This document shows positions 3,017-4,354 of a stretch of DNA of 64,000 bases, piece by piece (within the stretch, counting starts at the first letter, position 1; each line of letters opens with the position of its first letter). This DNA comes from Candidatus Latescibacterota bacterium (GTDB lineage: Bacteria > Latescibacterota > UBA2968). Below the pieces are notes generated by a model. That model had not been told where the DNA came from. It searched no databases and saw only the letters and a list, made by a program, of their open reading frames with translations. The position numbers and the translations under genes are program-made. The stretch covers positions 1,056,001-1,120,000 of the forward strand of contig OZ241986.1 of the NCBI GenBank assembly GCA_965204375.1, read 5' to 3'.

Positions 3017-3880
3017 TTACCGTGGATCGATCCATTTCTCTTCGGGATTGCCCAATTCGCGGAAGTCTTGCCCGGTGACGTGGATGATATGACACATTTC
3101 GAGAAAGCGAGAATAGATGCGCCCCTGTGCGAGATCTTTCAATTCATCAACTTTCTGATTTGTGGTCACAAAGGTGAGGCGTTGATTGGCATAGCGGGCG
3201 TCAATGAGGTTGTAGAGAATTTCCATTTCCCATTCGGTATTGCGCTGCACGCCAAAGTCGTCAATGACGAGATAGGGAACATTGCTCAGTACATCAATCA
3301 TGGGCATTGCCTGCCCATGTGTATCACTGCTTTCGTCAAATGTGTGTCTGAGTTCGTGAAAGCTCTTTGAGAGGGAGATAAATTTGCCGGGTTTGACAAA
3401 TCGAAAAATGAGCTCGTTGAGCAAAATATAAGCAAAGTAAGTTTTTCCTCGGCCTGGCTCACCCCACAAATAGAAGCCTTTGATCGATGCTTTATTGCCG
3501 TAAATATTATCGACTAAGGTGCTAAAATAGGACTTGAGGAGTGCCGCTCCCTGGATGGTCTGCCCATTGTCATGCTGCACCTTAAAGTCCTTTAAAAACT
3601 TAAAGCGAAAAGGTGCAGGTATGCCCGATTTTCGGATGTATTTGTCAATGTGGATTATTTTTTTTCGAAAGGGATAACACGGGCACCAGGTGGGTTCGCC
3701 GCTCTTTGGATCCAGGGTCATAAAAGGCGGCTTGCCGCCGCATTGACAGTATCGACAGTGTTCGAGGACTTTTGGAGAGAGTGTGATTTTTCCGTGAAGC
3801 CCCGCTTCGACATGGGGGTCGTAGTCGTAGCCGAGGTCATTGGGGGGAAGGTCAATGCCTGTTGTTTGTGGAGATGTGAT
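3017..3880 (-). CDS. DnaC/DnaI/IstB-like AAA+ ATPase with N-terminal Cys cluster (probable AUC start; ORF-track ATG at 3721)
   Basis: Walker A GEPGRGKT, Walker B LVIDDFG, TTN, RIYSR; frame is open up to the smpB stop and adds CRYCQC before CPC; GGAGGT precedes ATC ATC. Confidence 0.75.
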   Translation of the reverse strand: MTSPQTTGIDLPPNDLGYDYDPHVEAGLHGKITLSPKVLEHCRYCQCGGKPPFMTLDPKSGEPTWCPCYPFRKKIIHIDKYIRKSGIPAPFRFKFLKDFKVQHDNGQTIQGAALLKSYFSTLVDNIYGNKASIKGFYLWGEPGRGKTYFAYILLNELIFRFVKPGKFISLSKSFHELRHTFDESSDTHGQAMPMIDVLSNVPYLVIDDFGVQRNTEWEMEILYNLIDARYANQRLTFVTTNQKVDELKDLAQGRIYSRFLEMCHIIHVTGQDFRELGNPEEKWIDPR

Positions 3881-3883
3881 GAT

Positions 3884-4354
3884 TTACCTCCCGTTGTGAG
3901 TGCGTGTCTTTAACGCCTGTTCGACTTCGCGCTGGGCATCTCGGCGAGCAATATCGCGCCTCTTGTCAAATTGTTTTTTGCCGCGTGCCACGCCGAGTTC
4001 GACTTTGGCTTTGCCGCGTTTGAAATAGAGTTTGAGGGGAATTAATGTATGGCCTCTTTCGTTGATATATCCTCTCAGGCGATTGATTTCATGGCGGTGG
4101 AGCAGCAATTTGCGTTTGCGCTCGGTGTCGTGGTTAAACTGGTTGCCCTGTGCATATTCGCTGATATGCGTGTTGTGCAAATAAGCTTCCCCGTCCTCAA
4201 TGCGCGCGTAGCCATCTTTCAAATTGGCCCGGCCCTCGCGCAGGGCTTTGACTTCTGTGCCCCGCAATTGCAGGCCAGCTTCATAAGTGCTGAGGATGTG
4301 GTAGTCGCGCCGTGCTTTTCGGTTTTGCGCGATAATTTTGATACTTTCTGGCAT
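3884..4354 (-). CDS. smpB: SsrA-binding protein SmpB
   Basis: [36 protein letters not shown] before ATG at 4354. Confidence 0.97.

What the first reader, a model, noticed from the sequence alone, without database searches (positions are those of the whole stretch)
3017..3900. DnaC-like ATPase probably starts at a non-canonical AUC, in frame directly behind the smpB stop
Seen: the minus strand reads GGG AGG TAA ATC ATC ACA..., the TAA being the smpB stop, and the frame stays open for 54 codons before the first ATG, with no in-frame ATG/GTG/TTG. The extension supplies CRYCQC, which complements CPC just after the ATG. A strong GGAGGT lies 5 nt before the second ATC, while the ATG at 3721 has no RBS. 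Established: non-AUG starts such as AUU in infC make expression IF3-sensitive, and DnaI-type loaders carry N-terminal Zn sites. Inference: low, translation-coupled expression of a helicase-loader-like protein, or rare read-through giving an SmpB-ATPase fusion.
Basis: partly seen in the sequence, partly recalled or inferred. Interest (0 to 1): 0.65.

Follow-up and report, generated by a model that had tools for sequence, protein, structure and literature searches.

The report
Conserved AUC start behind smpB stop
A DnaC-like ATPase gene in a group of uncultured Latescibacterota lost its ATG start and most likely now begins at a weak AUC codon placed right behind the stop of the neighbouring smpB gene, a rare but already known way of keeping a protein scarce.

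Summary
On the minus strand smpB ends GGG AGG TAA (3892-3884). The next frame, ATC ATC ACA..., stays open for 54 codons with no ATG, GTG or TTG.

It is not a sequencing error. 17 of the 21 species of this Latescibacterota genus share the arrangement, and they form one clade. An independent assembly of a run is identical over the stretch.

The extension is coding:
- dN/dS for residues 11-54 is 0.29.
- It holds 14 columns that are invariant across the order.
- It supplies half of a C-x-C...C-x-C motif.
- It folds confidently in an AlphaFold model.

The four sister species and all 15 outgroup loci examined start with ATG, at the position now occupied by the smpB TAA.

No canonical start is conserved in the clade; the first one lies at codon 27, 39, 52/55 or 71.

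The second codon, ATC, is invariant. It lies 6 nt (5 nt in two one-base-deletion variants) behind an invariant GGGAGG, which is the modal spacing in this genome. Codon 1 varies: ATC, ATT, GTT or ACC.

The two deletion variants are out of frame with smpB, which argues against a read-through fusion.

infC in the same genomes also appears to start at ATC.

No direct protein or ribosome data exist. This is a new member of a known kind, and public gene calls truncate the protein.

The parts
3884..4354 (-). smpB coding sequence. The likely start is ATG 4354-4352, 5 nt behind GGAGG. The stop is TAA 3886-3884.
   Evidence: Pfam SmpB E 1.7e-60 on the ORF 3884-4360. Start region read.
3887..3892 (-). 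GGGAGG. It forms the last two smpB codons (Gly-Arg) and at the same time the Shine-Dalgarno sequence for the ATPase gene.
   Evidence: Invariant in 17 of 17 clade genomes while neighbouring smpB codons vary. Complementary to the 16S 3' end ...CACCTCCTTTCT. Sister genomes with an ATG start end smpB differently and lack it.
3884..3886 (-). smpB stop codon TAA. In an ungapped alignment it sits where relatives have the ATG of the ATPase gene.
   Evidence: both the TAA (17 loci) and the ATG (4 sister loci) lie 16 codons before the D of the D[LP]GY motif.
3881..3883 (-). Codon 1 after the stop (ATC). Probably not the start.
   Evidence: It varies: ATC in 14, ATT in 2 and GTT in 1 of 17 genomes, and ACC in the strain of runs X4/X5. 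It lies only 3 nt behind GGAGG, a spacing seen in 4 of 157 GGAGG-bearing genes.
3878..3880 (-). Codon 2 (ATC), the proposed AUC initiation codon.
   Evidence: ATC in 17 of 17 genomes and in the X4/X5 and X16 contigs. It lies 6 nt behind GGAGG, or 5 nt in the two deletion variants. Those are the two commonest spacings in this genome: 38 genes at 5 nt and 34 at 6 nt, of 157.
3870..3891 (-). Predicted small hairpin in which GGAGGU pairs with AUCUCC (codons 3-5). The loop holds UAA AUC AUC.
   Evidence: -5.9 kcal/mol here and -3.0 to -8.1 in the 17 genomes. P(SD paired) is at least 0.95 in 15 of 17, against a mean of 0.59 and 6.5% at or above 0.95 in 138 control genes. This is prediction only. The 5' arm is invariant, so no covariation test is possible.
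3722..3877 (-). N-terminal extension (codons 3-54) upstream of the first ATG.
   Evidence: No stop in 17 genomes. dN/dS for residues 11-54 is 0.29, bootstrap 0.12-0.71. 14 columns are invariant across 20 sequences of the order. pLDDT is 68-88 for residues 11-60, with a beta-hairpin at 19-35 and a helix at 37-46.
3677..3757 (-). Cysteine motif: CRYCQC (3757-3740; C-x-C in most relatives) and WCPC (3688-3677). A probable metal site that straddles the first ATG.
   Evidence: C43, C48, C67 and C69 are invariant in 20 of 20 aligned sequences. Coordinates. Metal binding was not tested.
3719..3721 (-). First canonical start codon (ATG, Met55). This is where gene callers begin the protein.
   Evidence: The residue is Thr in L015 and Gln or Leu in six outgroup loci (L024-L030 except L028... 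alignment). Database proteins of the clade begin here or at other internal codons, at 208-258 aa.
3059..3511 (-). AAA+ ATPase domain of the DnaC/DnaI/IstB clade. Walker A GEPGRGKT is at 3463-3440; Walker B LVIDD is at 3271-3257.
   Evidence: Pfam IstB_IS21 E 1.9e-8, over its cut-off. Profile against PDB: E. coli DnaC 5.3e-17. Foldseek: 6qem_G DnaC 7.1e-11 and IstB 8q4d_E 2.0e-10. Coordinates.
3017..3880 (-). Proposed full coding sequence of the ATPase: 287 codons from AUC codon 2, plus the stop TAA at 3019-3017.
2285..3001 (-). rph (RNase PH), the next gene. It has an ordinary AGGAG + ATG start 15 nt behind the ATPase stop.
   Evidence: Pfam RNase_PH E 1.3e-29. Junction read.

Best explanation
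The gene encodes a 287-residue DnaC/IstB-like AAA+ ATPase. Its N-terminal domain, which includes half of a four-cysteine motif, lies upstream of the first ATG.

In the ancestor of 17 species of one Latescibacterota genus, the junction with the upstream gene smpB was remodelled. The ancestral ATG disappeared and the smpB stop codon TAA now occupies its position.

Translation now most likely starts at the AUC that is the second codon after the stop. It would be read by the ordinary initiator tRNA (anticodon CAU). It is positioned by a strong Shine-Dalgarno sequence (GGGAGG) that doubles as the last two codons of smpB.

The stop and the AUC are 3 nt apart, and the SD is predicted to be locked in a small hairpin with codons 3-5. 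Initiation is therefore probably coupled to ribosomes finishing smpB, by unfolding and/or re-initiation. The result would be a low, smpB-linked and probably IF3-sensitive supply of the ATPase.

Shown here: the extension is under purifying selection; the non-ATG state is fixed in a clade; ATC codon 2 and GGGAGG are invariant.

Inferred: which codon starts translation, the coupling, the hairpin's role, IF3 sensitivity, and low expression.
For: 1. Real and fixed. 17 of the 21 genus genomes carry GGGAGG TAA [ATC/ATT/GTT] ATC. The records include both k141 short-read contigs and whole-chromosome assemblies (titles). The 17 form one clade (UFboot 98, SH-aLRT 94). A Logan contig of run X1 is identical over 3500-4300 at depth 55.

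2. The extension is translated.
- No stop occurs in any of the 17.
- dN/dS for residues 11-54 is 0.29 (0.12-0.71), against 0.21 in the ATG-start sister group and 0.17 for the ATPase body.
- 14 columns of the order-wide alignment that lie within residues 1-54 are invariant, among them C43 and C48.
- The AlphaFold model is confident there (mean pLDDT 81, pTM 0.83; residues 11-60 at 68-88).

3. No canonical start can serve. The first ATG/GTG/TTG is at codon 27 (5 genomes), 39 (1), 52/55 (10) or 71 (1, where Met55 is Thr).

4. Ancestral state. The 4 sister genomes, 9 outgroup loci and 6 further loci all begin ATG (MNN, MND, MSD or MTN). In the 4 sister genomes that ATG lies 16 codons before the D of D[LP]GY, the same distance as the TAA in the 17.

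5. Choice of codon 2. It is ATC in 17 of 17 genomes and in the X4/X5 and X16 contigs. Codon 1 is ATC, ATT, GTT or ACC. The spacing from GGAGG is 6 nt (5 nt in L010 and X4/X5), which is the mode of 157 GGAGG-bearing genes. The 16S 3' end carries CCUCC. SD-like 4-mers precede 41% of unambiguous starts against 8% of random positions.

6. Precedent inside the same genomes. infC keeps ATC 7-8 nt behind GGAGG in the 21 loci where the start region could be read (of 22 matches).

7. Coupling. The stop-to-start gap is 3 nt. One sister genome has an ATGA overlap with smpB. The SD is predicted paired at P of at least 0.95 in 15 of 17, against 6.5% of 138 controls. Contigs from two RNA libraries bridge the junction (weak, because DNA carry-over is not excluded).

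8. The initiator tRNA is ordinary: anticodon CAU, 5' CGCGGGG.

9. Literature.
- AUC gave 1-2% of AUG in E. coli reporters, with Met at the N-terminus (10.1101/063800, passages).
- Deinococcus dnaA starts at ATC by N-terminal proteomics (PMC2830850, passages).
- The unfolding and scanning models of coupling, and the +3 nt galT/galK pair, are described in PMC12548453 (passages).
Against: - There is no protein-level or ribosome-level evidence. All arguments are comparative or predicted.
- The 17 genomes are kin from a single origin, so invariance of one ATC third position is weak statistics. Pairwise dS in the body is only about 0.38.
- The first 10 codons have dN/dS of about 2 (bootstrap 0.6-16.7) with very low dS of 0.08. 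This fits an RNA-level constraint or a disordered tail (pLDDT below 50 for residues 1-7), but it does not itself prove translation from codon 2.
- ATT at codon 10 is also invariant.
- The hairpin is small, and the 131-nt region folds no better than shuffles (z = 0.52).
- The RNA-library evidence is from contigs only.
- 11 of the 41 matching genomes were not fetched, so their starts were not inspected.
Confidence: 0.72

Rival explanations
1. Translation starts at AUC codon 2 by ordinary SD-directed 30S binding, independent of smpB translation. The adjacency to the stop would be a historical accident and the hairpin irrelevant.
For: The strong SD sits at the modal spacing. The hairpin is weak at -3 to -8 kcal/mol. 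The region does not fold better than shuffles.
Against: - The stop-start gap of 3 nt (2 nt in the deletion variants) is in the range where coupling is most efficient (PMC12548453, passages).
- A ribosome terminating at UAA physically covers the SD and the AUC.
- The SD is predicted paired far more often than in 138 control genes.
- A sister genome already overlaps the two genes as ATGA.
Confidence: 0.18
2. Initiation is at another non-canonical codon: codon 1 (AUC/AUU) or the invariant AUU at codon 10.
For: Codon 1 is ATC or ATT in 16 of 17 genomes. ATT at codon 10 is invariant in 17 of 17.
Against: - Codon 1 is GTT in L012 and ACC in the X4/X5 strain.
- Codon 1 lies 3 nt behind GGAGG, a spacing seen in 4 of 157 genes.
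- Codon 10 has no SD-like motif in front of it.
- Codon 10 encodes an Ile/Leu that is also conserved inside the ATG-started proteins of relatives, which explains its invariance.
Confidence: 0.07
3. The protein starts at the first canonical codon (Met55 here), as gene callers assume. The upstream 54 codons would be an untranslated remnant.
For: Public gene calls of the clade are 208-258 aa. ATG is the strongest start codon.
Against: - No RBS precedes ATG 3721.
- The first canonical codon differs among genomes, and Met55 is Thr in L015.
- The remnant would have stayed stop-free with dN/dS 0.29 across 17 species.
- Such a start would split an invariant four-Cys motif and a confidently folded domain.
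Confidence: 0.03
4. Occasional read-through of the smpB UAA makes an SmpB-ATPase fusion, and that fusion is the functional product.
For: The two frames are in register in 16 of 17 genomes.
Against: - L010 and the X4/X5 strain each lack one base at the junction. The frames are then out of register, yet ATC codon 2 and the ORF persist. L010 has no canonical start in the 26 upstream in-frame codons.
- These two are 88% and about 98.5% like the window, so the deletions look independent.
- In sister genomes the genes are separated by 13 to about 130 nt or overlap out of frame.
Confidence: 0.02
5. Sequencing or assembly error, or a dying pseudogene.
For: None found.
Against: The same state occurs in 17 independently assembled species genomes. 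A run contig is identical. Purifying selection acts on the whole ORF. The gene is present in 41 of 41 genomes of the order that were searched.
Confidence: 0.01

Closest known systems
[quoted passage not shown]
   Same: A replication-type AAA+ ATPase gene with a conserved ATC start that was recognised because the N-terminus is conserved beyond the annotated start. The authors propose it as a means of translational control (PMC2830850, passages read).
   Different: There the start is proven by a labelled N-terminal peptide; here the evidence is comparative only. There it is not described as abutting an upstream stop codon. Here the ATG-to-ATC transition can be placed on a tree, and the SD is dual-coded in the upstream gene.
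infC (IF3) and pcnB of E. coli, which start at AUU
   Same: A weak near-cognate start used to limit or regulate expression, discriminated against by IF3 (passages in PMC2830850 and 10.1101/063800). infC of this very genus appears to use ATC.
   Different: The codon is AUC rather than AUU. No autoregulatory logic is evident for the ATPase. IF3 sensitivity was not tested here.
Translationally coupled gene pairs with very short stop-start distance (for example galT/galK at +3 nt, or ATGA overlaps)
   Same: The stop and the start are 3 nt apart, the SD lies inside the upstream gene, and RNA structure is predicted over the SD (PMC12548453 passages).
   Different: Known coupled pairs use AUG, GUG or UUG. 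Here the downstream start is a near-cognate AUC. Coupling was not shown.
DnaC / DnaI helicase loaders and the IstB transposition ATPase
   Same: The AAA+ domain is closest to these by sequence profile (E. coli DnaC 5.3e-17, Aquifex DnaC 2e-15, DnaI 3e-9) and by fold (6qem_G, 8q4d_E, 2qgz, 3ec2, 2w58).
   Different: - Scores lie far below the NCBIfam cut-offs for DnaC, DnaI and IstB.
- The N-terminal C-x-C...C-x-C domain matches no solved N-domain by sequence.
- The genome also has DciA, which is described as mutually exclusive with DnaC/I (PMC9912922 passage).
- There is no IS21 transposase context: the neighbours are smpB and rph.

Membership tests
Genes with a non-canonical (near-cognate AUC/AUU) bacterial start codon | The conserved coding region extends upstream of every canonical start codon | tested here: met
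   54 start-free codons, dN/dS 0.29 for residues 11-54, 14 invariant columns, and first canonical starts scattered at codons 27-71.
Genes with a non-canonical (near-cognate AUC/AUU) bacterial start codon | A conserved near-cognate codon at proper distance from a ribosome-binding site | tested here: met
   ATC codon 2 is present in 17 of 17 genomes, 6 or 5 nt behind an invariant GGGAGG. That is the modal spacing in this genome. The anti-SD is present.
Genes with a non-canonical (near-cognate AUC/AUU) bacterial start codon | The N-terminus of the protein is shown to start at that codon (fMet/Met) | not testable with these tools
   The organism is uncultured. Only contig-level RNA-library data were available.
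Translationally coupled gene pair (termination-reinitiation or unfolding) | Co-directional genes with a stop-start distance of a few nucleotides | tested here: met
   UAA, then 3 nt, then AUC. The gap is 2 nt in the deletion variants.
Translationally coupled gene pair (termination-reinitiation or unfolding) | Downstream translation depends on upstream translation | not testable with these tools
   Only a predicted SD-sequestering hairpin and junction-bridging contigs in RNA libraries.
Pfam PF01695 IstB_IS21 / DnaC-type AAA+ ATPases | Profile match over the curated cut-off, with Walker A and Walker B motifs | tested here: met
   34.6 bits against a cut-off of 24.1. GEPGRGKT and LVIDD are present, and the G/K/T and DD positions are invariant.
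Replicative helicase loader DnaC (NF005931) / DnaI (NF006505) | Equivalog-level profile score | tested here: not met
   56.3 bits against a cut-off of 357 for DnaC, and 46.2 against 228 for DnaI.
Replicative helicase loader DnaC (NF005931) / DnaI (NF006505) | Acts as the genome's helicase loader, with no DciA in the same genome | tested here: not met
   DciA (PF05258) is present at 75.4 bits against a cut-off of 24. The exclusivity statement comes from a passage in PMC9912922. Binding to DnaB was not tested.
IS21 helper ATPase IstB (NF038214) | Equivalog score and an adjacent IstA transposase | tested here: not met
   49.6 bits against a cut-off of 200. The neighbours are smpB and rph. The gene is present in 41 of 41 genomes of the order, as a core gene would be.
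DnaI-type N-terminal zinc-binding domain | Similarity of the N-domain to the solved DnaI N-domain, and metal binding | tested here: inconclusive
   Four invariant Cys residues and a confident fold. However, no PDB N-domain was matched by sequence profile, and the Foldseek hits cover about 170-220 columns, mostly the AAA+ part. Metal binding was not tested. That DnaI has a Zn site is recalled, not checked here.

The most novel reading that the evidence does not exclude
The junction may be an evolved, obligatory termination-reinitiation device.
- The Shine-Dalgarno sequence is dual-coded in the last two smpB codons.
- It is held in a hairpin with codons 3-5 of the ATPase gene.
- The start is a near-cognate AUC that only ribosomes finishing smpB can use.

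This would fix a very low ATPase:SmpB ratio. It would also put a DnaC-like ATPase under the same IF3-dependent start-codon control as infC, which also appears to start at AUC in these genomes, and so tie it to the state of the translation and ribosome-rescue machinery. It would be a natural case of compensation for a lost ATG by coupling plus a strengthened SD, maintained across 17 species.
Probability: 0.35. Interest if true: 0.6.

Novelty: new member of a known kind. Interest (0 to 1): 0.45.

Why it matters
**Annotation.** Every public gene call found for this clade is truncated by 30-80 residues. That removes part or all of a conserved cysteine domain. The proteins should be re-annotated with an ATC start.

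**Biology.** The locus is a datable natural experiment. An ATG was lost and the gene survived through at least 17 speciations on a near-cognate AUC. The compensating features are visible: an SD written into the upstream gene's last two codons and a stop-start gap of 3 nt. That makes it a good test case for how far coupling and SD strength can rescue a weak start codon, and for whether IF3 discrimination is used to co-regulate genes other than infC.

**Limit.** It does not open a new category. AUU and AUC starts and translational coupling are established.

Tried and rejected
- **Read-through fusion:** rejected because of the two out-of-frame variants.
- **Sequencing error:** rejected.
- **Special initiator tRNA reading AUC:** rejected. 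aragorn finds 50 tRNAs, among them one ordinary initiator-like tRNA-Met (CAU), two other CAU tRNAs and one tRNA-Ile (GAU).
- **General use of non-canonical starts in this genome:**
  - The first scan by coding score was swamped by antisense shadow ORFs and was not informative.
  - The stricter scan found only 2 candidates.
  - It would miss cases like infC, where a GTG lies inside the SD.
- **Metagenome scan for more clade members:** it gave only 3 loci, all of the ATG-type outgroup.
- **Whole-region RNA structure:** not better than shuffles (z = 0.52). Only the local hairpin stands out.
- **Terminator-like hairpin at 3739-3726:** the count of such sites is not above shuffles (3 found against 3.4 expected).
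- **Failed call:** one literature query failed on a formal limit and was replaced.
- **Literature searches:** searches found no paper on this locus or on start codons in Latescibacterota. For one search, 3 of the 4 matching papers were listed, and I saw only their titles and abstract openings, which concern other subjects. This covers the held library only.
- **RNA libraries X5 and X16:** they hold junction-spanning contigs, but contigs cannot show transcript ends, strand or level, and DNA carry-over is possible.
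Full report
**1. The observation**

On the minus strand the sequence reads ...CAC AAC GGG AGG TAA ATC ATC ACA TCT CCA....
- The TAA at 3886-3884 ends an ORF that is SmpB (Pfam E 1.7e-60).
- The frame that follows is open for 288 codons down to TAA 3019-3017.
- Its first ATG/GTG/TTG is codon 55, the ATG at 3721-3719.
- The extension contains CRYCQC (3757-3740). 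WCPC (3688-3677) follows the ATG.
- GGAGGT lies 5 nt before the second ATC, and ATG 3721 has no purine-rich motif in front of it.

A stretch of 54 codons free of stops and canonical starts is by itself expected in roughly 0.5% of genes (my arithmetic). I then required at least 25 start-free codons, a coding-like body, and GGAGG within 15 nt before a near-cognate codon among the first 12 codons. Only 2 ORFs of the 6.34-Mb genome qualify, and this one ranks first.

**2. Not an error, and fixed in a clade**

The window lies in a single-contig genome whose relatives are titled Candidatus Latescibacterota MAGs.
- A relative of the protein is found in 41 of 41 genomes searched in the order and in all 21 species of the genus.
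- I inspected the 30 loci that one search returned. The other 11 matching genomes were not fetched.
- 17 of the 21 genus genomes carry GGGAGG TAA followed by [ATC x14, ATT x2, GTT x1] and then ATC in all 17.
- These records include both k141 short-read contigs and whole-chromosome assemblies.
- On a maximum-likelihood tree of the protein the 17 form one clade (UFboot 98, SH-aLRT 94; one change of state needed).
- An independently built contig of run X1 is identical to the window over 3500-4300 at depth 55.

**3. Ancestral state**

The four remaining genus members begin with ATG (MND, MNN, MTN). So do all nine outgroup loci from the same family and order and six further loci from genome and metagenome collections.

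In the four sister genomes the ATG lies 16 codons before the D of the conserved D[LP]GY motif. That is the same distance at which the 17 genomes have the smpB TAA. MAFFT prefers a one-residue gap there, so this correspondence holds for the ungapped alignment.

In the sister genomes the gene already follows smpB:
- with an ATGA overlap in L019;
- with 13- or 15-nt spacers in L014 and L021;
- with a spacer of about 130 nt in L016.

In those genomes smpB ends differently (...RNRR...TRN...KRNR...RNWR) and without GGGAGG.

So the junction was remodelled once. The ATG was lost, and the last two smpB codons became Gly-Arg, spelled GGG AGG.

**4. The extension is translated**

- None of the 17 genomes has a stop in the 51-54 codons.
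- Pooled pairwise Nei-Gojobori estimates give dN/dS 0.29 (column bootstrap 0.12-0.71) for residues 11-54.
- That compares with 0.33 for residues 55-75, 0.17 for the ATPase body, and 0.21 for residues 11-54 in the ATG-start sister group.
- In a 20-sequence alignment across the order, 14 invariant columns fall in residues 1-54 (G18 Y19 Y21 D22 G28 H30 G31 I33 L35 S36 C43 C48 G50 P53). All four cysteines of the C-x-C...C-x-C motif are invariant.
- AlphaFold2 on that alignment gives mean pLDDT 81 and pTM 0.83. Residues 19-66 contain a beta-hairpin, a helix and two short strands, with block pLDDT of 68-88.
- Only residues 1-7 and 278-288 are below 50.

**5. No canonical start can serve**

The first ATG/GTG/TTG in the 17 genomes is at codon 27 in five, 39 in one, 52/55 in ten and 71 in one. 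In the last (L015) the Met equivalent to Met55 is Thr. In six outgroup loci that position is Gln or Leu.

Gene callers nevertheless start there. Database proteins of the clade are 208-258 aa, whereas ATG-type relatives are called at 286-290 aa.

**6. Which codon starts**

- Codon 2 is ATC in 17 of 17 genomes. Codon 1 varies.
- Laying contigs of other runs added a strain about 98.5% identical to the window (X4 DNA and X5 RNA library, one sample). One base of the junction is missing there, codon 1 reads ACC and codon 2 is still ATC. A third contig (X16) has the junction unchanged.
- L010 (88% protein identity) also lacks one base at the junction.
- In both deletion variants the ATPase frame is out of register with smpB. 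L010 has no canonical start in the 26 in-frame codons upstream.
- The 16S rRNA ends ...GGATCACCTCCTTTCT.
- SD-like 4-mers precede 41% of 2155 unambiguous-start ORFs against 8% of random sites.
- Among 157 genes with GGAGG upstream, the spacing to the start peaks at 5 nt (38 genes) and 6 nt (34 genes). A spacing of 3 nt occurs in 4.
- Codon 2 is thus at 6 nt (5 nt in the deletion variants), and codon 1 at 3 nt.
- GGGAGG is invariant in 17 of 17, although both codons have synonymous alternatives and the neighbouring smpB codons vary freely.
- ATT at codon 10 is also invariant. It has no SD in front and encodes an Ile/Leu that is conserved inside the ATG-started relatives.

I therefore place the start at ATC 3880-3878, with moderate confidence.

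**7. A precedent in the same genomes**

infC (IF3), found with PF05198, has no plausible canonical start.
- A GTG lies inside its own GGAGG. That GTG is out of frame in four genus genomes.
- An ATC 7-8 nt behind GGAGG is present in all 21 loci where the region could be read, of 22 matches in 21 genomes. One locus sits at a contig edge.
- The initiator tRNA is ordinary: anticodon CAU, 5' CGCGGGG.

**8. Coupling**

- The stop and the proposed start are 3 nt apart.
- RNA folding predicts a six-pair hairpin in which GGAGGU pairs with AUCUCC of codons 3-5 (-5.9 kcal/mol), with UAA AUC AUC in the loop.
- A related hairpin (-3.0 to -8.1 kcal/mol) is predicted in all 17 genomes.
- The probability that the SD is paired in an 85-nt context is at least 0.95 in 15 of 17. 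In 138 control genes of this genome with GGAGG upstream, the mean is 0.59 and 6.5% reach 0.95.
- The 17 are kin and the 5' arm cannot vary, so this is only a hint. The 131-nt region as a whole folds no better than shuffles (z = 0.52).
- Synonymous divergence is low in the first ten codons (dS 0.08, against 0.24-0.39 elsewhere). This fits an RNA-level constraint, but the sample is ten codons.

The review PMC12548453 (passages read) describes both the unfolding and the ribosome-scanning models, and the +3 nt galT/galK pair. Either model would apply here. PMC2268962 (abstract only) reports that re-initiation in E. coli needs initiator tRNA and IF2 and is reduced by IF3 over-expression.

**9. What the protein is**

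- Pfam places it in IstB_IS21 (34.6 bits, cut-off 24.1).
- The best NCBIfam match is PRK08116, named 'hypothetical protein' (E 1e-40, below its cut-off). DnaC, DnaI and IstB equivalogs score far below their cut-offs.
- A profile of 20 orthologues hits E. coli DnaC (5.3e-17), Aquifex DnaC and DnaI in the PDB, over the AAA+ part only.
- Foldseek ranks DnaC in the DnaBC complex, IstB and DnaI first.
- The genome also encodes DciA (75.4 bits, cut-off 24). DciA and DnaC/I are described as mutually exclusive (PMC9912922, passage).

So I call it a DnaC/IstB-like AAA+ ATPase with a four-Cys N-domain and leave its cellular role open. It behaves as a core gene (41 of 41 genomes) and is not in an IS21 context.

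**10. Comparison with the known, and novelty**

- Near-cognate starts are established: AUU for infC and pcnB in E. coli, and ATC for dnaA in Deinococcus by N-terminal proteomics (PMC2830850, passages).
- AUC gave 1-2% of AUG in E. coli reporters, with Met at the N-terminus (10.1101/063800, passages).
- Short-distance translational coupling is also established.

This locus is therefore a new member of a known kind. Its particular merits:
- the ATG-to-AUC transition is placed on a tree;
- compensating features are visible (an SD dual-coded in smpB, a 3-nt gap, a possible SD hairpin);
- infC in the same genomes appears to use the same codon.

My searches of the held library found nothing on this locus or on start codons in Latescibacterota. 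I did not look at supplementary files.

**11. Verdict**

- The fusion alternative is rejected.
- Direct evidence for the start codon, for coupling and for IF3 sensitivity is lacking and cannot be obtained with these tools.

Noticed in passing
L033:1504-1506 (G000:C1:2792870-2792872), outside the window: infC of this genome and of the whole genus appears to start at ATC, 7-8 nt behind GGAGG. The only nearby GTG lies inside the SD and is out of frame in four genomes. The ORF lister and gene callers would misplace this start.
   Followed up: partly
window 4352-4360 (-): The smpB ORF is listed from GTG 4360, but that GTG is part of GGAGGTG. ATG 4354-4352 lies 5 nt behind the GGAGG and is the more likely start. 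The upstream transglutaminase-like gene ends at TGA 4369-4367, so four or five minus-strand genes are packed head to tail.
   Followed up: partly
window 3740-3757 (-): This genome and two close relatives (L002, L003) carry a 3-codon insertion in the first cysteine pair (CRYCQC instead of C-R/Q-C). It adds a fifth cysteine and looks like a small tandem duplication.
   Followed up: no
window 3726-3739 (-): A GC-rich hairpin followed by TTTT lies inside the coding sequence directly before ATG 3721 and is terminator-like by the simple scan. The number of such sites in 2200-5400 (3) is not above shuffles (3.4).
   Followed up: partly
L079 (G000:C1:4689297-4689557, -), outside the window: A DciA homologue (PF05258, 75.4 bits) coexists with the DnaC/IstB-like ATPase, although DciA and DnaC/I are described as mutually exclusive. 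Either the ATPase is not the helicase loader or this lineage is an exception.
   Followed up: no
window 3882-3885, in contigs of runs X4 and X5: A strain about 98.5% identical to the window lacks one base at the smpB/ATPase junction and has ACC as codon 1. L010, a different species, has a similar one-base loss. Two apparently independent deletions at the same spot both shorten the SD-to-ATC spacing from 6 to 5 nt.
   Followed up: partly
L022-L030, L071-L073, L076-L078: Outside the genus the ATPase gene does not follow smpB. It overlaps by about 30 nt the end of a different upstream gene whose product contains an amidase-like ...ANFYV...LVE.GF... stretch (name recalled, not tested). The move next to smpB is thus specific to the genus.
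   Followed up: no
L018:1501-2418: In one clade member the ATPase ORF runs about 20 codons longer at its 3' end than in the others (305 against 283-288 aa). I did not check whether its stop codon was lost.
   Followed up: no
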